Source: an uncultured Candidatus Poseidoniales archaeon
Lineage (GTDB): Archaea > Thermoplasmatota > Poseidoniia > Poseidoniales > Poseidoniaceae
Direction: 5' to 3'
DNA: 64,000 nt
Assembly: GCA_905182185.1 (NCBI GenBank)
Contig: CAJJAP010000003.1
Coordinates: 14,813 to 78,812, forward strand
Positions 11,855 through 18,077 of the stretch are shown piece by piece; the stretch's first letter is position 1; the number at the start of each line of letters is the position of its first letter. The translations under genes were made by a program, and so were the position numbers. Under the pieces are notes generated by a model, which saw nothing but the letters and a program-made list of their open reading frames with translations, was not told where the DNA came from and did not search any database.

Positions 11855-12472
11855 TCACTCTTCTTCAAACTCATCAAATGAGTCTACAACTTCGAGCATT
11901 TCTTTATCTTGCCCGACCATCGATTCAGCATGCTTAGGTTCATCTTCAATATTTGTCATTCCCATGAATGGATCTTTTCCATCTTCTATCATGCATAATA
12001 ATCTCCATCTTGGAGCCCAAGACAAATGAACATACATCGGCCCAGGCAATAATAGTAAGAACCACGAGATCAAAGATGGTATTGCCATCATATCAGTCCG
12101 ATCGATTGTCAATAATGCAAATCCAATAAAAGGCATAGGATAGAGTATTGCACGCGGCGGGGAAACCGGAAATCTTTTGAATACACTAACCAATATAATT
12201 GAAACGAATCCTAATAGCAAACAAGTAGCTACCAATAGCGCGGAATGGAATATCCATCCGCTGACCCATCCAGAACCTGATTGCGCAAATTTGTATGGAA
12301 GAAGAATTGCAATAGATACTAACACACCATAAAAACCACCGATATTAGCTGGATGAGATAGCCACAAAGGTAATTTTGTGAAGCGGCGGGAAAGTGAAGT
12401 TCCGAGAAGAGTGGCCCTTTCACTCATATCAAGCGATTCGAGGCTTTTTTCCCATCCAGAAGAGGCACTCAT
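11855..12472 (-). CDS. Hypothetical membrane protein
   Basis: 205-aa ORF with about 4 TM segments and an acidic C-terminus. Confidence 0.7.
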   Translation of the reverse strand: MSASSGWEKSLESLDMSERATLLGTSLSRRFTKLPLWLSHPANIGGFYGVLVSIAILLPYKFAQSGSGWVSGWIFHSALLVATCLLLGFVSIILVSVFKRFPVSPPRAILYPMPFIGFALLTIDRTDMMAIPSLISWFLLLLPGPMYVHLSWAPRWRLLCMIEDGKDPFMGMTNIEDEPKHAESMVGQDKEMLEVVDSFDEFEEE

Positions 12473-12535: not shown

Positions 12536-13228
12536 TTATTCCCTGTTAAGGAATTTGGCCATCGGACCTTCAACTTCAATCTCTTGTTCTTCTTCAAGCC
12601 AAGATCTTTGAAGTAATTCACTTTCTTGCTTCTCTCTTTGCCTTCTTTCACTATCATCTGTGATACTTGATTGTTCAGCATCCTCGTCATTACACAGATT
12701 TGACAATATAATCGCCTGATTTAATAGCGCTAGTGAACGTCTAAGTTGCGCTGTAACCTTTTTATTATTAGTAAAATGACCAATCCTTGTATAATCTTCA
12801 TCATCATAGACCAAGTCTAATCCACCAAATAGAGTGTTAGTGGCCAAACGGACTCTCGCATCTTTCAATAAGACCCACTTCTTATCCGATTGTAACCAAA
12901 CAAAAACTTCAGCCTTACCCACCGGCACATCACTCATTAAAGGATGATTGAAATTTACTGAAAATGGGATATTCTTATCTCTTTTAATGACTAATCTGAT
13001 AGGTACAGTAATAGCAAAAAATAGCAACACGGGCAACGCGATATTGGCTAATTCCAAAGGTCTTGAAATCATAAATAATGAGCATAATATCAGAGTTACA
13101 AATATTGCCAAATTTGGCATTTTTGAATTGTCCGAATGTAATTCTTTGGCCACCATCGTTTCAAAGTAAACTTTAGTTGTTGATGGCGGGTCGTCAAATG
13201 AATTAGAAGCCATCAAACTAACCATCAT
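12536..13228 (-). CDS. Hypothetical membrane protein
   Basis: 230-aa ORF with two N-terminal hydrophobic helices and a charged C-terminus. Confidence 0.65.
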   Translation of the reverse strand: MMVSLMASNSFDDPPSTTKVYFETMVAKELHSDNSKMPNLAIFVTLILCSLFMISRPLELANIALPVLLFFAITVPIRLVIKRDKNIPFSVNFNHPLMSDVPVGKAEVFVWLQSDKKWVLLKDARVRLATNTLFGGLDLVYDDEDYTRIGHFTNNKKVTAQLRRSLALLNQAIILSNLCNDEDAEQSSITDDSERRQREKQESELLQRSWLEEEQEIEVEGPMAKFLNRE

Positions 13229-13382: not shown

Positions 13383-15437
13383 ATGGTCGAATTAGCGCAG
13401 GGAGAAGTTGTTGAATCTCGCCGTGGCGGTGCTGACATATTGGCTCGACTAACCAATGACATGGCTAGACTCGGCCGTTCAGGACACATGCGAATTGAAC
13501 GACGAGTCAAAGGAATAATGCCCAGAGTCAGCCAAATTGTTCTAAGAGAAGGAAGACCAATCTTAGCCCTGCATGAATCAGATAAACTACTTACTGGCCT
13601 AGAAGCACTACTTGAAATTGAAAGTGATTGTTCGGCACTAGATGCTACAATTTCACTTCATGTACAAGAGATAGAAGATGTTGATGTTATCGCTAAATTA
13701 TTCCCAGCAGCATATCTGGACCTCGCGGCGGAGAATATTTCTAACCATCGACAAGGAGAAGGGGAGTGGTGGACAAAGTCACGTACTTTGAAATCAACAT
13801 GGAAGCGTGAAGAAAGACTTCCAGAATTAGAACCTTCAGTTGAAACACCAGAATTTATCCGGCAAAAAAGCAAGGCAATGCTTGAACGACATAGCGGCAT
13901 TGTAGAGATGTTAAGCCCTGGCCAAACTCTGATCTACGATAGTGAAGACCCGGCAAAGTTATTCCAATTAGTGAGTAATTTAGCAACTCATGGTAGACCA
14001 ATTCTTGTCATCTCTCGTTACGAAGTAGAACAATTGAATGTCAATTTTGATTTACCGATTGAATCGTGTTCATGGCTAAGCAATGTAGAAACTGATAATT
14101 CACTCGACCCGTCTTTGGAAAGCATTAAAATGAAAATTGATGCTTTTTTGTGGGCCAACTCGAGAGCCGTGGTTGCTTTTGAAGGTTTAGAATATCTAGC
14201 CGGGATCCATGGTGATGACCGAATGATTGGAATGATCCGAGATATTTGCGATGGAGTTAAATTGGAAGATCACTTATTAATTTCCACTGCCGATTTAACT
14301 GCATTTAATCTATCAAAGAGGCAATTATTAACCCGTGAATTGGATGAATTAAAATCTGAAACTCTAGATCATTGGCTACTAGAAGATGATTTATTACTCG
14401 ACCATCCGATTTGCGCGACTCCTGACGAAGACGAAACTCGATGGGTCGAAACTCAATTGAAAAGAGCATTAGGCGATAATTTACAATCTCCGGCAAGTTC
14501 TGTAGATGCTATGCATGGAATGTCTGGTGGCGAAGAGTCATTGGACCCTCTGGAGATTAGCAATGCCACGGGAAACCTATCTGCAATGATGCAAGAATGG
14601 GCTGAAGATTCAGAACTTGTTTCATCATTAGAAATTGAAAACTCCCAACCCATAACCTCTCCTAATGAACAAGGACCAAGCGATGATTGGACACCAACAT
14701 TCCACGGCAGCGAAACTACTGAGATGAAACAATCAAAATCAAGACAGGTACAACAAATCCATCCACAACACAATCTTGATGAAGATAATGTTGATTCTTC
14801 CTTGAATCCTGCAGTTGAGCAACCGACAGTTCAAAGACAAAATTCGTCGAAATCAACTGGCCCGAGAAAGGCCACTATTGTAAAGAGAGCCAAGAAGAGC
14901 ATCAATCTCCCACCTATCACCACTAGAAAGAATACAATGCAAGCAAATGCTGCAATTCAAGTCGCTAGAAATTCTCCAGACCTTCCACAACTGAAAATTA
15001 TTGCACAACCTGAAAAGCACCTATCTCGTTCAATAAAGGAACGTGACATCATCCAAAGAAAAGCACTTGATGACACATTCCAAACAATCTCTCACCAGCA
15101 AGATTTACAACTTCAACAAGCATCTGTTCAATCTGCTGCTAAGCGTATTACAACTCTACCACCAACTAGCGGGGGTCCGAATGTATTGGACGTAATAGCC
15201 GACATCAGGCCAATAGGTACCGAGACAAAACTAACCCCTTCTATGGCTTTAGATTCAATTAATCCTATGAGACAAAATGAGGACGATATGAGAGAATCTG
15301 CAAGACGCTCTCAATCAGCTAAAACGATCGAAGTTGTTGTTGAAGAATGGAAAGCATCGAGTTCAAAAAGAATACTCAACAGTAGCACCCTATATGACAA
15401 AGAAGGGAATGCCATTGAACGATACGGAGGCCAGTGA
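13383..15437 (+). CDS. DUF835 (inactive KaiC-like) protein with N-terminal PATAN/DUF2226-like domain and long low-complexity tail
   Basis: SGHMRIE..IVLREGRPILALHE..LTGLEAL at the N-terminus; LVISR..WLS..SLDPSLE..VVAFEGLEYL..IRDICD DUF835-like core. Confidence 0.65.
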   Translation: MVELAQGEVVESRRGGADILARLTNDMARLGRSGHMRIERRVKGIMPRVSQIVLREGRPILALHESDKLLTGLEALLEIESDCSALDATISLHVQEIEDVDVIAKLFPAAYLDLAAENISNHRQGEGEWWTKSRTLKSTWKREERLPELEPSVETPEFIRQKSKAMLERHSGIVEMLSPGQTLIYDSEDPAKLFQLVSNLATHGRPILVISRYEVEQLNVNFDLPIESCSWLSNVETDNSLDPSLESIKMKIDAFLWANSRAVVAFEGLEYLAGIHGDDRMIGMIRDICDGVKLEDHLLISTADLTAFNLSKRQLLTRELDELKSETLDHWLLEDDLLLDHPICATPDEDETRWVETQLKRALGDNLQSPASSVDAMHGMSGGEESLDPLEISNATGNLSAMMQEWAEDSELVSSLEIENSQPITSPNEQGPSDDWTPTFHGSETTEMKQSKSRQVQQIHPQHNLDEDNVDSSLNPAVEQPTVQRQNSSKSTGPRKATIVKRAKKSINLPPITTRKNTMQANAAIQVARNSPDLPQLKIIAQPEKHLSRSIKERDIIQRKALDDTFQTISHQQDLQLQQASVQSAAKRITTLPPTSGGPNVLDVIADIRPIGTETKLTPSMALDSINPMRQNEDDMRESARRSQSAKTIEVVVEEWKASSSKRILNSSTLYDKEGNAIERYGGQ

Positions 15438-17572
15438 GTATGATTGGCAAGAAAGAACGTCTTGACCTTGCAATACAGAAGGCCAAAAAACAATTAATTC
15501 AAAATGGTGTTGACAGCCTACAGTTCCCACAGGAAAAAACGGTCAAACAAGAAAAAACGAGTTTACCGCTATCAAGAATGAATCGTTTGCTTGGAAAATC
15601 GACAGTTGCTGATACTCGGCATAGTAGCATTTTACAACGCACCGGTGTGGCACAAAGACCAACCTTTGATTTGATCGCTGATTCAAATCTAGGAACTGAA
15701 AGTAGAGGCCACACACCGGTTATCAATCTACAAAACGACGGTGATGATTTTGCTAGCATTGCTGCAAGGCGAATTAAATCCTTAAGAGAAGTTAGCCTAT
15801 TGAAGTCGGAACAAATGGCACTCGATATTGATACAGAAAGTCAATATGTTGGGATAGAAAGTGATTCACGGCCAATTTGGCTAAGCGTCTTAGATGGGCA
15901 GAGGGGAAGAGTCACTAATGCACTGCCTGATGAACTAGCACCGCCCAATGAAGATTCAATACACCATCATAGCCGCTCATTACAAGTTAAAGCCGCATGG
16001 CCTAAACCACTACGAATCGACACTCAACGCACATTCAAACAATGGTTTGTATGCTCTGAAAACTCTCACGCTAGTAGAGCATGTGAATCAATAGTAGATT
16101 CCCCAGCAACTAGCCTCAACCCCCTACTCATCATCGGTAAAAATGGAACCGGTCGCTCACATCTAATTCACGCAACTGCGCAAGGCGTAGCAAGAAGAAT
16201 GGAGGGGTTGGTATTCCTGCTCAGTGCTGTTGATTTGATAGGGATGGAAACACTTCCCAAGGATTGGCAAGAAGCACTAGTTGGAGCAAGTCTATTGGCA
16301 ATTGATGATGCCCATATGATTGCAAATGATGCTGCTTTGGCTAATCAAATTGGAATAATGATAGACCATGCAATAAACTTAGGAGTACATGTAATCCTAA
16401 CCAGTGTAGAATCTCCAGATGAATGGCCTTCTTCCCGTCTTTGGGACATTTGCCGCAATTCTGCTCAAACCCAGATACAGATTCCAACTGCCACAAACCT
16501 AGTAATGTTTACAAGAAGATTAGCTGGTTCAAGAAACTTAATGCTGGATGATGGACAGATGACTGCCATTGTCACTTTCAACCAAATCGGTTGGAGAAGT
16601 ACTATTGCGAATTTTGACAAGGTCGCTCTTGCTATTGAGTCCGGAGATGATATAATCGATGGAGAGGATGTCATTCGCACACTGCGGGATGAAGTAAGGC
16701 CGCAATTTGTAGATCAAGATGAAATCGTCCACCATAACGTAGATGATATTGCGACACGATTGATTTCTAATGCAGTCGATACGGTCTATTCTGTTCACGA
16801 CATTGGGGGAATCGACTTAGTTCGCAATATTCCTGAACTGGGAGAAGATGATTACCAGCCTCCACAATGGGATGCCAATGAAATGTCGTTGGAGGGTGAA
16901 GAAATGCTTGAAAAGTTCGTCCATAAAACCCTTGAGGAATTAACTCCTGAAGCACCTTCAGTTTTGAGCGTTCATGAAAATGAGCAGCATTTGATTACAC
17001 GACCTAATCGCATTGAAGAGCAAGATTATGGTCGGGCTGCAGATATCTTAACCGAATTAGATGACAAAATTGATTCAAAAATAAAAGATGCTGAATTGGA
17101 TGTATTCAATAATTCAATACTTCTTAGTGACCTTGAGGATAAAATGATAGAATTATCACAGAAAGCGGGTAGTGCAGATATTGATGAATTAATCGCCATT
17201 GCGGATGAATTACGCCATCTTGAAGAGAAATTGGTTGCTATCGATCCAACTAGAGATGAACTTCCACCGTTTGAAGAAGACGATAAGCCTCGACGAATCG
17301 CTAAGAGAAGAAAAGGTAAATCAAAGAGAAAGGTTACTCGCCGCACCCCAAAAACAGTTGTTACAAAGAATACTGATAGTTATGAGGCATCATTGGATAG
17401 TTTTGAACCTGAAGGAGAATGGAATATTCAGGCAGAAGACATCGATATGATCGATTTGCTAGATGATAGTACACCAGATAATAAGGAAGTAAAACAACCT
17501 GTTGAGGAAAAAATAGTTAGGGCAATAAAAACTCCAAAAAGAACCACTCCGATAAACAGGACCAAGAATTGA
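15434..17572 (+). CDS. Protein with bacterial DnaA/Hda-type AAA+ domain (degenerate), acidic coiled coil and basic patch; true end possibly 17616
   Basis: TFKQWFVCSENSHA...SLNPLLIIGKNGTGRSHLIHA, LLAIDDAH, VILTS..P match DnaA domain III by eye. Confidence 0.75.
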   Translation: MSMIGKKERLDLAIQKAKKQLIQNGVDSLQFPQEKTVKQEKTSLPLSRMNRLLGKSTVADTRHSSILQRTGVAQRPTFDLIADSNLGTESRGHTPVINLQNDGDDFASIAARRIKSLREVSLLKSEQMALDIDTESQYVGIESDSRPIWLSVLDGQRGRVTNALPDELAPPNEDSIHHHSRSLQVKAAWPKPLRIDTQRTFKQWFVCSENSHASRACESIVDSPATSLNPLLIIGKNGTGRSHLIHATAQGVARRMEGLVFLLSAVDLIGMETLPKDWQEALVGASLLAIDDAHMIANDAALANQIGIMIDHAINLGVHVILTSVESPDEWPSSRLWDICRNSAQTQIQIPTATNLVMFTRRLAGSRNLMLDDGQMTAIVTFNQIGWRSTIANFDKVALAIESGDDIIDGEDVIRTLRDEVRPQFVDQDEIVHHNVDDIATRLISNAVDTVYSVHDIGGIDLVRNIPELGEDDYQPPQWDANEMSLEGEEMLEKFVHKTLEELTPEAPSVLSVHENEQHLITRPNRIEEQDYGRAADILTELDDKIDSKIKDAELDVFNNSILLSDLEDKMIELSQKAGSADIDELIAIADELRHLEEKLVAIDPTRDELPPFEEDDKPRRIAKRRKGKSKRKVTRRTPKTVVTKNTDSYEASLDSFEPEGEWNIQAEDIDMIDLLDDSTPDNKEVKQPVEEKIVRAIKTPKRTTPINRTKN

Positions 17573-17612
17573 ATCTTGCCCCACCAGTGACCCTCATTTC
17601 AGGTGAAGAAGA

Positions 17613-18077
17613 ATGAAGCCATGGTGGATGGACGGAGTTCCGTTCAAGTGTCAAGCGAATTGCGGCAGATGCTGTGATGAACCGGGTGGAATTGTCTATT
17701 TATCTGAAAAAGATGCACTGAGAATCTCTGAACATCATGGGATGGATGTGGAAAGTTGGTTGGAAAGAGATTGTGAACAAACAATTGATGGCCGCTACAT
17801 TCTAAAAAGCAGAGTTGAAGACGAAATCTGTATTAATTTGGACGAAAACAAACAATGCACTATCTACAAAGTAAGGCCACAACAATGTGCAGCATTCCCT
17901 TGGTGGGGTGAAAACCTTGCCACTGAAAGGTCATGGAATCGCGTGGTTGCAGAATGTCCTGGGCTTACTGCTGAAGATGTAATCTTGGTCGATGGTAATA
18001 GCATTAGAATACAAATTTTTTCTGATAGAGACTCTAGTAAAGGTTTTCGCGAGTGGCCGGTGAAGAATAAAAAATAA
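17613..18077 (+). CDS. YkgJ family cysteine cluster (CxxCxxCC) protein
   Basis: FKCQANCGRCC, CINLD..CTIYKVRPQQCAAFPWW, ECPG. Confidence 0.9.
   Translation: MKPWWMDGVPFKCQANCGRCCDEPGGIVYLSEKDALRISEHHGMDVESWLERDCEQTIDGRYILKSRVEDEICINLDENKQCTIYKVRPQQCAAFPWWGENLATERSWNRVVAECPGLTAEDVILVDGNSIRIQIFSDRDSSKGFREWPVKNKK

What the first reader, a model, noticed from the sequence alone, without database searches (positions are those of the whole stretch)
13383..18077. Candidate undescribed system: PATAN/DUF2226-DUF835 protein + DnaA-like pseudo-ATPase + YkgJ operon
Seen: three co-oriented genes. Genes 1 and 2 overlap by GTGA at 15434-15437. An alternative frame at the end of gene 2 (DKQDQELNLAPPVTLISGEEE*) stops at 17616 and overlaps the YkgJ ATG, so gene 3 is probably coupled too. 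Gene 1 has a PATAN/DUF2226/DUF4388-like N-terminus, a DUF835-like core and ~280 aa of low complexity. Gene 2 has a DnaA-type AAA+ module between low-complexity and coiled-coil regions. Known: DUF835 is an inactivated KaiC-like domain proposed to act in archaeal signalling; PATAN-type domains occur in bacterial localisation/polarity proteins. Inference: two catalytically degenerate P-loop modules plus scaffold regions could form a nucleotide-sensing signalling, positioning or cell-cycle complex. I know of no description of this combination in archaea.
Basis: partly seen in the sequence, partly recalled or inferred. Interest (0 to 1): 0.8.

Follow-up and report, generated by a model that had tools for sequence, protein, structure and literature searches.

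The report
Split DnaA-like ATPase / inactive-KaiC pair
Two overlapping genes of a marine Group II archaeon encode the separated and catalytically degenerate halves of a protein that other archaea of the phylum make in one piece: a bacterial-type DnaA ATPase module joined to an inactive KaiC-like domain, of unknown function but probably regulatory.

Summary
The three genes, the GTGA overlap and the alternative frame are real. Pfam recovers DUF835, Bac_DnaA and CxxCxxCC above its cut-offs. The PATAN/DUF2226-like N-terminus is only a weak lead.

New here: in other Thermoplasmatota (Methanomassiliicoccales, Thermoplasmata) one polypeptide carries gene 1's N-domain, a fully canonical DnaA-type AAA+ module and DUF835. 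That is Rosetta-stone evidence that genes 1 and 2 act together.

In Poseidoniales the pair is always adjacent and co-oriented, usually with overlapping stop and start. Both genes and YkgJ were found in the same genera and in none of seven small-genome Thalassarchaeaceae genera, where the block is cleanly missing.

The presence pattern matches that of strong KaiC-like ATPases in 21 of 22 genera, but archaellin in only 16 of 22.

Gene 2 has lost the box VII arginine, the sensor I aspartate and part of the initiator-specific motif. In the window's clade it has also lost the Walker A lysine. Gene 1's RecA-like domain has no P-loop.

YkgJ is operon-coupled only in Poseidoniaceae, is inverted in Thalassarchaeaceae, and is not linked outside the order.

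The window's gene 2 carries a 1-base deletion that removes a conserved ...GEEE C-terminus.

Best reading: a non-hydrolysing nucleotide-binding regulatory scaffold tied to the archaeal KaiC-like network. Its function is untested.

The parts
13383..15437 (+). Gene 1 (684 aa): N-domain, linker, DUF835 (inactive KaiC-like) domain and disordered tail
   Evidence: ORF. The start is supported by orthologs. Pfam finds DUF835. AF2 model has mean pLDDT 78.
13383..13712 (+). Gene 1 N-domain (residues 1-110): alpha/beta domain with no assigned family, shared with the fused Thermoplasmatota proteins
   Evidence: pLDDT 81-90 with topology b-a-b-b-b-b-a-b-a. The profile A3 finds it at the N-terminus of fused proteins. 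No PDB sequence match at E<=10. DUF2226/PatA_N are weak leads only.
13713..13907 (+). Gene 1 linker (residues 111-175), low model confidence, with invariant WW (W129, W130). It sits at the position where fused relatives carry the AAA+ module.
   Evidence: pLDDT under 50 at residues 115-173. Invariant columns. Domain order of the fusions.
13908..14402 (+). Gene 1 DUF835 domain (residues 176-340): RecA/KaiC/FlaH-like fold without a P-loop
   Evidence: Pfam match at residues 191-320. VIA-align Z 13.8 to FlaH 4yds (rmsd 3.2, 150 aligned), followed by KaiC-family chains. Foldseek finds RecA, FlaH and KaiC. The loop after strand 182-186 reads DSEDPAKL, with no GK[ST].
14403..15437 (+). Gene 1 tail (residues 341-684): poorly conserved, polar, with small conserved islands (a basic PRxA..xRxK patch and RExAxRxQ)
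   Evidence: Conservation is 0.24-0.43 here against 0.5-0.75 in the domains; 76% polar or small residues.
15434..15437 (+). GTGA overlap of gene 1's stop with gene 2's start
   Evidence: Among orthologs the overlap is 4 nt in 10 of 18 and 1 nt in 4 of 18; starts were chosen heuristically.
15434..17572 (+). Gene 2 as it reads in the window (712 aa): disordered N-region, DnaA-type AAA+ domain III with lid, helical region, basic and acidic tail. The 3' end is truncated by a 1-base deletion.
15989..16723 (+). Gene 2 AAA+ module (residues 186-430). Walker A is GKNGTGRS (R241 in place of Lys). Walker B is DD (291-292). The box VII Arg and sensor I Asp are lost. The initiator-specific motif is 6-8 residues shorter.
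   Evidence: Bac_DnaA 43.4 bits. Profile A2 matches B. subtilis DnaA 8btg at E 1.2e-22. Foldseek to 8bv3 domain III gives TM(target) 0.84, rmsd 2.4. Residues mapped on E. coli DnaA.
17551..17616 (+). Alternative frame giving the ancestral C-terminus ...LISGEEE*, which overlaps gene 3's ATG. It is reached if one base is added after 17548.
17613..18077 (+). Gene 3 (154 aa): YkgJ-type CxxCxxCC metal-binding protein. It is co-transcribed in Poseidoniaceae only.
   Evidence: Pfam 42.6 bits. Orientation counts. Same genus pattern as genes 1 and 2. Not found beside distant relatives.

Best explanation
Genes 1 and 2 encode the two halves of one conserved three-domain module of the phylum Thermoplasmatota. 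The module consists of an unassigned alpha/beta N-domain, a DnaA-type AAA+ ATPase (domain III only) and an inactive KaiC-like domain (DUF835).

In Poseidoniales the module is split. Gene 1 keeps the N-domain and DUF835. Gene 2 keeps the AAA+ part. The two are made together from overlapping reading frames.

Both nucleotide sites have decayed. DUF835 has no P-loop. The AAA+ part lacks the box VII arginine and the sensor I aspartate, and in this clade also the Walker A lysine. The pair therefore most likely works as a nucleotide-binding but poorly or non-hydrolysing adaptor or scaffold. Its long disordered tails carry conserved short motifs that could recruit partners.

I infer that it plugs into the archaeal KaiC-like ATPase regulatory network rather than initiating replication.

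Shown: domain identities, the fusion in relatives, linkage, co-distribution and motif loss. Inferred: physical complex, nucleotide binding without hydrolysis, and the link to KaiC-like ATPases.

YkgJ is a lineage-specific passenger or accessory, co-expressed in Poseidoniaceae.
For: **Fusion in relatives.** Single ORFs of 611-1018 aa in other Thermoplasmatota carry N-domain + Bac_DnaA (192-203 bits) + DUF835 (76-93 bits).
- 107 of the 120 listed relatives of one such protein carry both PF00308 and PF05763.
- Among the 150 best cluster representatives found with the gene 1 profile, 34 are N-AAA-DUF and 49 are N-DUF.

**Linkage in the order.**
- Gene 1 lies upstream of gene 2 and is co-oriented in 18 of 18 loci and in 74 of 80; the other 6 are cut by contig ends.
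- The stop/start overlap is 4 nt in 10 of 18.

**Co-distribution over 151 genomes at least 85% complete.**
- Gene 2 is found in 102 and gene 1 in 103, with the same genus pattern apart from one weak hit.
- In 5 of 5 genomes lacking them, the flanking genes remain and the block is gone.

**KaiC link.**
- Strong PF06745 matches (best E 1e-45 to 1e-59) occur in all 102 genomes that have gene 2, plus one more.
- The other 48 genomes have only weak matches, E 1e-9 to 1e-16.
- In distant loci a KaiC-like gene of 233-263 aa sits beside the AAA+/DUF835 genes in L149, L243 and L248. A RadB/Rad51-like gene follows the fused gene in L148 and L150.
- DUF835 serves as an output domain of archaeal response regulators and is called an inactivated KaiC (passages of PMC5847659).

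**Motif decay.**, with residue roles taken from passages of PMC3401641.

**Not the replication initiator.** There is no domain IV or domain I. Two Orc1/Cdc6 genes lie elsewhere in the genome.
Against: - No experiment and no structure of a complex exists.
- The whole neighbourhood (aminotransferase, ORF205, genes 1-3, citrate synthase) is syntenic across the order, so adjacency within the order is weak evidence on its own.
- The genera lacking the block are small-genome lineages that have lost many genes and may be one clade. Co-loss with each other and with KaiC-like ATPases could therefore be one event or general genome reduction.
- Genus g20 keeps strong KaiC-like genes without gene 2.
- KaiC-like or RadB-like neighbours occur in only 5 of 37 distant loci.
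- In the split form the domain order is permuted relative to the fusions, so a simple fission does not explain it.
- A profile comparison found no DUF835 remnant in gene 2.
- An arginine in place of the Walker A lysine, and a retained sensor II arginine, do not exclude residual ATP binding or hydrolysis.
Confidence: 0.55

Rival explanations
1. A DNA-associated factor. The DnaA-type AAA+ module oligomerises on single- or double-stranded DNA, with the RecA-like DUF835 domain as partner. It would act in replication control, recombination or repair, or nucleoid organisation, by analogy with DnaA, DnaC-DnaB or Hda.
For: - Sequence and fold are closest to DnaA domain III and Hda.
- Distant fused relatives keep every DnaA catalytic and ssDNA-contact region.
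- Both tails carry conserved basic patches.
- A RadB/Rad51-like gene lies directly downstream of the fused gene in L148 and L150.
- DnaB-DnaC (6kza) is among the structural neighbours of the DUF835 domain, at Z 10.9.
Against: - In Poseidoniales the initiator-specific motif is shortened and the box VII arginine is lost. That arginine is needed for an active DnaA nucleoprotein complex.
- There is no DNA-binding domain IV.
- The genome has two Orc1/Cdc6 genes.
- Some genomes hold up to 6-7 paralogues, which fits signalling families better than core DNA transactions.
- The block is dispensable in seven genera.
Confidence: 0.2
2. A regulator of the archaellum or a type IV filament motor. DUF835 would mimic FlaH/ArlH, and the N-domain would be a PATAN-like domain that docks on the motor ATPase.
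For: - FlaH is the best structural match of the DUF835 domain: Z 13.8 and the only PDB sequence hit, E 0.13.
- The Atlas gives a lead to PatA_N.
- One relative fuses Bac_DnaA to a T2SSE (PilB/ArlI-type) ATPase, L140:8832-11294.
- That PATAN domains bind the pilus motor is recalled, not checked here.
Against: - Archaellin (PF01917) and genes 1-2 disagree in 6 of 22 genera. g3, g4 and g19 have the pair but no archaellin was found. g10, g22 and g20 have archaellin but not gene 2.
- The PATAN/DUF2226 call is sub-threshold.
- The locus holds no filament genes.
Confidence: 0.07
3. Functionally unrelated neighbours. The three genes merely share a stable housekeeping region and were deleted together by chance in reduced genomes.
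For: The neighbourhood is conserved order-wide, including metabolic genes. The gene 3 pattern equals that of genes 1-2 although it is inverted in one family. That shows a block deletion can mimic co-evolution.
Against: The domains of genes 1 and 2 are covalently fused in many other lineages. Stop/start overlaps are kept across families.
Confidence: 0.08
4. An anti-virus defence or mobile-element module built on an AAA+ sensor.
For: Paralogue expansions and variable N-terminal parts (HEAT, Zn ribbons) occur in large Thermoplasmatota genomes.
Against: - PADLOC gives no match for the three window proteins, and only E 1e-4 to 4e-6 fragments for three relatives.
- The chromosomal position is fixed across an order.
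- GC content is even, 0.39-0.44, across the region.
- No integrase or transposase was seen among the ORFs and neighbouring genes I examined.
Confidence: 0.05

Closest known systems
Fused 'DnaA/Hda family protein' / 'DUF835 domain-containing protein' of Methanomassiliicoccales and Thermoplasmata (database entries only, e.g. P0121, P0123, P0128)
   Same: They hold the same three domains: the N-domain (profile A3), a DnaA-type AAA+ and DUF835. They belong to the same phylum.
   Different: They are one polypeptide in the order N / AAA+ / DUF835. Their AAA+ is fully canonical (Bac_DnaA 190-234 bits; K178, D235 and R285 equivalents kept). They lack the long tails and the GEEE end. The window's form is split, permuted and degenerate.
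Bacterial DnaA domain III and Hda
   Same: Best sequence and fold match. The characteristic N-terminal signature of domain III (tF..w..g..N..A ... NPL.i.G) is present.
   Different: - No domain I, II or IV.
- No box VII arginine and no sensor I aspartate.
- A shortened initiator-specific motif.
- Scores are far under the NCBIfam equivalog cut-offs: DnaA 59.8 against 343.9, Hda 41.1 against 194.8.
- The host is an archaeon with Orc1/Cdc6.
DUF835 / iKaiC output domains of archaeal response regulators (REC-DUF835; Galperin et al. 2018, PMC5847659, passages seen; Makarova et al. 2017, not held, cited there)
   Same: The same Pfam family, regarded as an inactivated KaiC-like ATPase domain of the proposed archaeal KaiC signalling network.
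   Different: Here the partner is not a receiver domain but an unassigned N-domain plus a DnaA-type AAA+ encoded downstream. In the passages I saw, the domain table of that paper lists no DnaA combination.
FlaH/ArlH (4yds, 4wia) and single-domain KaiC-like ATPases (2w0m, 2dr3)
   Same: Closest solved folds to gene 1's C-domain, Z 12.9-13.8.
   Different: Those proteins bind ATP through a Walker A loop, which gene 1 lacks. The phyletic pattern does not follow the archaellum.
DnaC-DnaB, an initiator-clade AAA+ working on a RecA-fold ring (analogy only)
   Same: It pairs a DnaA-like AAA+ with a RecA-superfamily domain.
   Different: There is no helicase motif, no active site in DUF835 and no N-terminal helicase-binding domain of the DnaC type. 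Membership was not tested.

Membership tests
Bac_DnaA (PF00308), the DnaA/Hda AAA+ family | Profile match above the curated cut-off | tested here: met
   43.4 bits against a cut-off of 23, residues 196-330. Alignment profile against PDB DnaA gives E 1.2e-22.
Bac_DnaA (PF00308), the DnaA/Hda AAA+ family | Fold of DnaA domain III (AAA+ base plus lid) | tested here: met
   Foldseek to 8bv3_A: E 3.6e-14, TM(target) 0.84, rmsd 2.4 over 240 columns. Hda (3bos) TM 0.74.
Bac_DnaA (PF00308), the DnaA/Hda AAA+ family | Walker A lysine (E. coli K178) | tested here: not met
   Arg in the window and in 4 of 7 sampled Poseidoniales. Lys in 3 of 7 and in 7 of 7 distant relatives.
Bac_DnaA (PF00308), the DnaA/Hda AAA+ family | Box VII arginine finger (E. 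coli R285) | tested here: not met
   Ile, Leu or Ala in 7 of 7 Poseidoniales. Arg in 7 of 7 distant relatives. Role taken from passages of PMC3401641.
Bac_DnaA (PF00308), the DnaA/Hda AAA+ family | Sensor I aspartate (E. coli D269; role recalled) and sensor II arginine (R334) | tested here: inconclusive
   The D269 equivalent is lost in 7 of 7. The R334 equivalent is kept in 5 of 7, including the window.
Replication initiator DnaA (TIGR00362 equivalog) | Full-length architecture with DNA-binding domain IV and a score over the equivalog cut-off | tested here: not met
   59.8 bits against a cut-off of 343.9. The match covers profile positions 99-339 only. No Bac_DnaA_C or DnaA_N hit.
DUF835 (PF05763), inactivated KaiC-like domain | Profile match above the cut-off, with a RecA/KaiC-like fold | tested here: met
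   52.6 bits against a cut-off of 33.1. Z 13.8 to FlaH and Z 12.4 to KaiC.
DUF835 (PF05763), inactivated KaiC-like domain | Absence of a Walker A P-loop | tested here: met
   The loop after strand 1 reads DSEDPAKL. No GK[ST] is conserved in the 18 orthologs.
PATAN / DUF2226 (PF09987) / PatA_N (PF14332, formerly DUF4388) | Profile match of the N-terminal domain | tested here: not met
   - The window protein has no hit at E<=10.
- 4 of 17 orthologs hit sub-threshold, best E 0.0075.
- No genome of 151 Thermoplasmatota has a DUF2226 match over the cut-off.
- The weak DUF2226 hits there lie in ORFs without our domains.
PATAN / DUF2226 (PF09987) / PatA_N (PF14332, formerly DUF4388) | Fold similarity | tested here: inconclusive
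   Both fold searches of the two-domain model were filled by RecA-like hits on residues 172-336, so the N-domain was barely tested. Atlas cosine scores of 0.77-0.79 are leads only.
YkgJ / CxxCxxCC (PF03692) | Profile match above the cut-off, with a cysteine cluster | tested here: met
   42.6 bits against a cut-off of 23. The sequence has C13-x3-C17-x2-CC.
   Genes 1-2: yes. Gene 3 is on the same strand in 56 loci, on the opposite strand in 18 and not covered in 6, of 80. It is absent beside 16 distant relatives at E<=10.

The most novel reading that the evidence does not exclude
Archaea of the phylum Thermoplasmatota captured a bacterial DnaA ATPase module and wired it to KaiC-like regulators, as a nucleotide-gated switch that couples cell state to the chromosome (replication licensing or recombination control). 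The abundant marine Group II archaea would keep a split pseudo-enzyme version whose disordered tails and conserved GEEE terminus recruit the active partners.
Probability: 0.15. Interest if true: 0.85.

Novelty: new variant of a known kind. Interest (0 to 1): 0.55.

Why it matters
DnaA is the hallmark bacterial replication initiator, and archaea are not expected to use it. This work shows three things.

- A bona fide DnaA-type AAA+ module is widespread in Thermoplasmatota, always without its DNA-box-reading domain.
- It is repeatedly joined to an inactive KaiC-like domain.
- Automatic annotation calls these proteins 'chromosomal replication initiator protein DnaA', which is misleading.

In Poseidoniales, among the most abundant planktonic archaea, the module is a conserved split pair with decayed active sites. 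Its distribution follows that of KaiC-like ATPases. That gives the proposed, largely untested archaeal KaiC signalling network a concrete new component, and a tractable pair of proteins for binding and nucleotide assays. It also offers a natural comparison between active fused forms and degenerate split forms.

Tried and rejected
1. **Complex prediction.** Gene 2 residues 189-429 (A2 50-290) were folded with gene 1 residues 170-345. The tool returned 'no answer', score 0.00 against a mark of 0.32. This is no evidence either way.
2. **Archaellum link.** Rejected on phyletic discordance in 6 of 22 genera.
3. **A DUF835 remnant inside gene 2**, which would support tandem duplication with complementary loss. 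hhalign of A2 against A1 gave probability 0.18. Not supported.
4. **DUF2226 membership of the N-domain.**
   - Sub-threshold only.
   - A phylum search found no DUF2226 over the cut-off, and the weak hits are unrelated ORFs.
   - A PDB sequence search with A3 found nothing at E<=10.
5. **Defence system.** PADLOC gave nothing of note.
6. **Neighbour census of the fused family through metagenome contigs**.
   - The scan was swamped by AAA+-only matches (residues about 313-544, 43-53% identity), presumably bacterial DnaA.
   - Only 1 of 80 loci (L157) was a full-length fusion.
   - I used 20 more genome regions instead.
7. **YkgJ beside distant relatives.** No hit at E<=10 in 16 loci.
8. **Co-transcription.**
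   - All four runs laid are assembled contigs of RNA libraries from 3 studies.
   - One contig bridges the gene 1/2 junction by more than 31 nt on each side at 95-99% likeness (X2 record 13), and one more diverged contig does so too (X4 record 27).
   - X4 record 31 reaches only 11 nt into gene 3.
   - Contigs cannot show a single transcript, and DNA carry-over is not excluded.
9. **Literature.** Makarova et al. 2017 (PMC5717392) is not held. Its domain catalogue and supplements may already list AAA+-DUF835 combinations. A look into PMC7203096 for DnaA found nothing in the held part. PMC4158269 mentions only virus-associated 'DnaA-like' ATPases.
10. **/data/genome.fa** was laid but not used in any script.


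Full report
**What is there.**
The window comes from a Candidatus Poseidoniaceae (marine Group II) genome. Source names of close homologues say so. The region holds three co-oriented ORFs.
- Gene 1 runs 13383-15437. Its ATG is supported because all 18 ortholog alignments begin at residue 1-2.
- Gene 2 runs 15434-17572. Its GTG start overlaps gene 1's TGA as GTGA.
- Gene 3 runs 17613-18077.

Pfam recovers DUF835 in gene 1 (52.6 bits, cut-off 33.1), Bac_DnaA in gene 2 (43.4, cut-off 23) and CxxCxxCC in gene 3 (42.6, cut-off 23). NCBIfam gives only far sub-threshold DnaA and Hda matches over the AAA+ part. The flanks are housekeeping genes: a class I/II aminotransferase, a CTP-dependent riboflavin kinase, citrate synthase, a GDPD protein and a PAP2 protein.

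**The 3' end of gene 2.**
- Window 17551-17616 reads DKQDQELNLAPPVTLISGEEE* and stops on the ATGA of gene 3.
- All 13 same-genus orthologs end in GEEE and overlap gene 3 by 4 nt.
- More distant orthologs end in PDEEE, DESEE, LLPEE or TPDE.
- Contigs from two RNA libraries carry one extra base after 17548.

The window therefore has a 1-base deletion. It may be an assembly error or a strain variant. It removes a conserved acidic C-terminus.

**Domain anatomy of gene 1.**
An AlphaFold2 model of residues 1-345 (18-sequence alignment, mean pLDDT 78) shows three parts:
- a confident alpha/beta N-domain (residues 1-110);
- a low-confidence linker (115-173), which nevertheless holds an invariant WW;
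- a confident C-domain (176-340).

The C-domain matches FlaH (Z 13.8), single-domain KaiC-like ATPases and KaiC (Z 12.4-12.9). Foldseek finds RecA, FlaH and KaiC. The loop after the first strand has no GK[ST]. This fits the published view of DUF835 as an inactivated KaiC (passages of PMC5847659).

The N-domain has no Pfam family.
- The window protein gives no hit at E<=10.
- 4 of 17 orthologs give sub-threshold DUF2226 hits.
- The Atlas offers DUF2226 (0.79) and PatA_N (0.77) as leads only.
- No PDB sequence matches.

**Domain anatomy of gene 2.**
A model of residues 140-480 (pLDDT 78) matches B. subtilis DnaA domain III with TM(target) 0.84 and rmsd 2.4, and then Hda. The ortholog profile hits DnaA chains at E 1e-22.

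**State of the active sites.**
I aligned the sequences to E. coli DnaA. The roles of R285 and R334 come from passages of PMC3401641. The roles of K178, D235 and D269 are recalled. Seven Poseidoniales and seven distant Thermoplasmatota AAA+ modules were compared.

| E. coli residue | Poseidoniales (of 7) | Distant relatives (of 7) |
|---|---|---|
| K178 (Walker A) | Arg in 4, including the window; Lys in 3 | Lys in 7 |
| D235/D236 (Walker B) | kept | kept |
| D269 (sensor I) | lost in 7 | kept in 6 |
| R285 (box VII arginine) | lost in 7 | kept in 7 |
| R281 | kept in 5 | kept in 6 |
| R334 (sensor II) | kept in 5 | kept in 6 |

The initiator-specific motif region is 6-8 residues shorter in Poseidoniales. 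'Pseudo-ATPase' is therefore a fair description for the whole order.

**Linkage within the order.**
- Gene 1 lies directly upstream of gene 2 and is co-oriented in 18 of 18 loci with an upstream flank.
- The same holds in 74 of 80 Poseidoniales loci from species representatives. The other 6 are cut by contig ends.
- The overlap is 4 nt in 10 of 18 and 1 nt in 4 of 18, with starts chosen heuristically.
- Gene 3 is always the next gene. It is on the same strand in 56 loci, on the opposite strand in 18 (Thalassarchaeaceae-type loci) and not covered in 6, of 80.
- The whole neighbourhood is syntenic, so adjacency alone says little.

**Distribution.**
I searched 151 genomes of the order that are at least 85% complete.
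- Gene 2 was found in 102, gene 1 in 103 and gene 3 in 103.
- All 86 genomes of the window's family have them, but only 14-15 of 63 in the second large family.
- The genus patterns are the same apart from two weak single hits, in g20 for gene 1 and g6 for gene 3.
- Seven genera with genomes of 1.2-1.7 Mb have none of the three.
- In 5 such genomes the aminotransferase and citrate synthase remain next to each other and the three-gene block is gone.
- These lineages may share one loss, so this is weak evidence.

**The decisive evidence: fusions.**
A phylum-wide search with the gene 2 profile found matches at E 1e-16 to 1e-27 in many other Thermoplasmatota families.
- In those loci, single ORFs of 611-1018 aa carry gene 1's N-domain, then Bac_DnaA at 192-203 bits, then DUF835 at 76-93 bits.
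- 107 of the 120 listed relatives of one such protein carry both PF00308 and PF05763. Their sources name them 'DnaA/Hda family protein', 'chromosomal replication initiator protein DnaA' or 'DUF835 domain-containing protein', from Methanomassiliicoccales and Thermoplasmata.
- A search of 1.84 billion cluster representatives with the gene 1 profile gave 2927 hits at E<=0.001. Of the best 150, 49 are N-DUF, 34 N-AAA-DUF, 2 AAA-DUF, 58 DUF835 only and 7 N only, by my local profiles.
- Of 39 AAA+-bearing ORFs in 37 distant loci, 17 also hold DUF835. Others have a separate DUF835 gene beside them.

The domains of genes 1 and 2 thus belong together over a wide evolutionary range. The gene 1 linker sits where the fusions carry the AAA+ module.

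**Clues to function.**
- The pair does not replace the archaeal initiator. The genome has two Orc1/Cdc6 genes on other contigs, and gene 2 lacks DnaA domains I and IV.
- It does not follow the archaellum. Archaellin and the pair disagree in 6 of 22 genera.
- It does follow KaiC-like ATPases. All 102 genomes with gene 2, plus one more, have PF06745 matches at E 1e-45 to 1e-59 (3-8 matches each). The other 48 have only weak matches, at 1e-9 to 1e-16.
- In distant loci a KaiC-like gene sits between or beside the AAA+ and DUF835 genes (L149, L243, L248). A RadB/Rad51-like gene follows the fused gene in L148 and L150.
- Some large genomes hold up to 6-7 paralogues with varied N-terminal parts: HEAT repeats, zinc ribbons and a T2SSE ATPase. 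That is typical of modular regulatory proteins.
- PADLOC gives nothing of note.

**Reading.**
The best-supported explanation is a two-subunit, catalytically decayed version of a Thermoplasmatota N-domain / DnaA-AAA+ / inactive-KaiC module. It would act as a nucleotide-binding adaptor linked to the KaiC-like network.
- Shown: domains, fusion, coupling, distribution and motif loss.
- Inferred: a physical complex, binding without hydrolysis, KaiC partners, and a tethering role for the conserved tail motifs (EGEWNID..DLL and GEEE-COOH).

A DNA-directed role remains a real rival, because all characterised relatives of this AAA+ clade work on DNA.

**Expression.**
Fourteen rows on record as RNA hold part of the stretch. 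Contigs of four marine metatranscriptomes from three studies were laid on it. Two of them cover all 30 bins, and one contig bridges the gene 1/2 junction. Contigs show presence in RNA libraries, not a single transcript, and DNA carry-over is not excluded.

**Novelty.**
The domain families are known. The fused architecture sits in public databases under automatic and partly misleading names. Four literature searches (DUF835; PF05763; DnaA-like + archaea + AAA+ + Thermoplasmat; DnaA + Methanomassiliicocc) found no description of the DnaA-DUF835 combination or of the split Poseidoniales pair. The key paper on KaiC-like hubs (Makarova et al. 2017) is not held, so prior mention there cannot be excluded.

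Noticed in passing
window 17546-17575: Gene 2 of this assembly has a 1-base deletion after 17548 relative to relatives and to contigs of two RNA libraries. It truncates the protein 13 residues early relative to the closest ortholog and removes the conserved GEEE end. It may be an assembly error or a strain variant.
   Followed up: yes
e.g. G041:C1:1265714-1266157, G016:C2:108814-109173 (not in the window): Most Poseidoniales genomes that have the pair also hold a second, stand-alone DUF835 ORF of about 290-440 aa elsewhere. It was not found in the reduced genera. G000 is 63% complete and shows only gene 1.
   Followed up: no
L140:8832-11294 (+): An 821-aa ORF in another Thermoplasmatota genome fuses a canonical Bac_DnaA module (234 bits) to a T2SSE (PilB/ArlI-type) secretion ATPase (124 bits).
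   Followed up: no
L135:4921-8490, L137:6106-9864, L145:6191-9946, L254, L255, L256: ORFs of about 1180-1410 aa carry the same N-domain, a long middle part and a DnaA-type AAA+. Pfam shows C-terminal zinc ribbons in L137, the only one scanned. None has DUF835. Family f18 had a gene 2-profile match in 15 of 15 genomes, often together with a coiled-coil + Bac_DnaA protein of about 420-440 aa (L136, L138, L147).
   Followed up: partly
L148:3575-4267 (-), L150:6347-7030 (-): A RadB/Rad51-like gene of 227-230 aa lies directly downstream of the fused DnaA-DUF835 gene in two different families, overlapping it by 4 nt in L148.
   Followed up: partly
L089, L105: Two records titled as bacteria (a Yoonia sp. 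MAG and a Deltaproteobacteria single-cell assembly) carry the complete Poseidoniales syntenic block: aminotransferase, ORF205, genes 1-3 and citrate synthase. They are probably mis-binned or mislabelled contigs.
   Followed up: partly
window 11855-12472 (-) and 12536-13228 (-): Two ORFs upstream of gene 1 on the opposite strand have no Pfam family. ORF205 is conserved across the order and was found in three of the five reduced genomes examined. ORF230, the divergent neighbour of gene 1, was matched only within the genus, at 34-43% identity apart from one close relative at 82%.
   Followed up: no
L158-L236 (metagenome contigs): The AAA+ core of the archaeal fused proteins is 43-53% identical to AAA+-only matches on many metagenome contigs, presumably bacterial DnaA. 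This suggests a comparatively recent or strongly constrained bacterial origin of the module.
   Followed up: no
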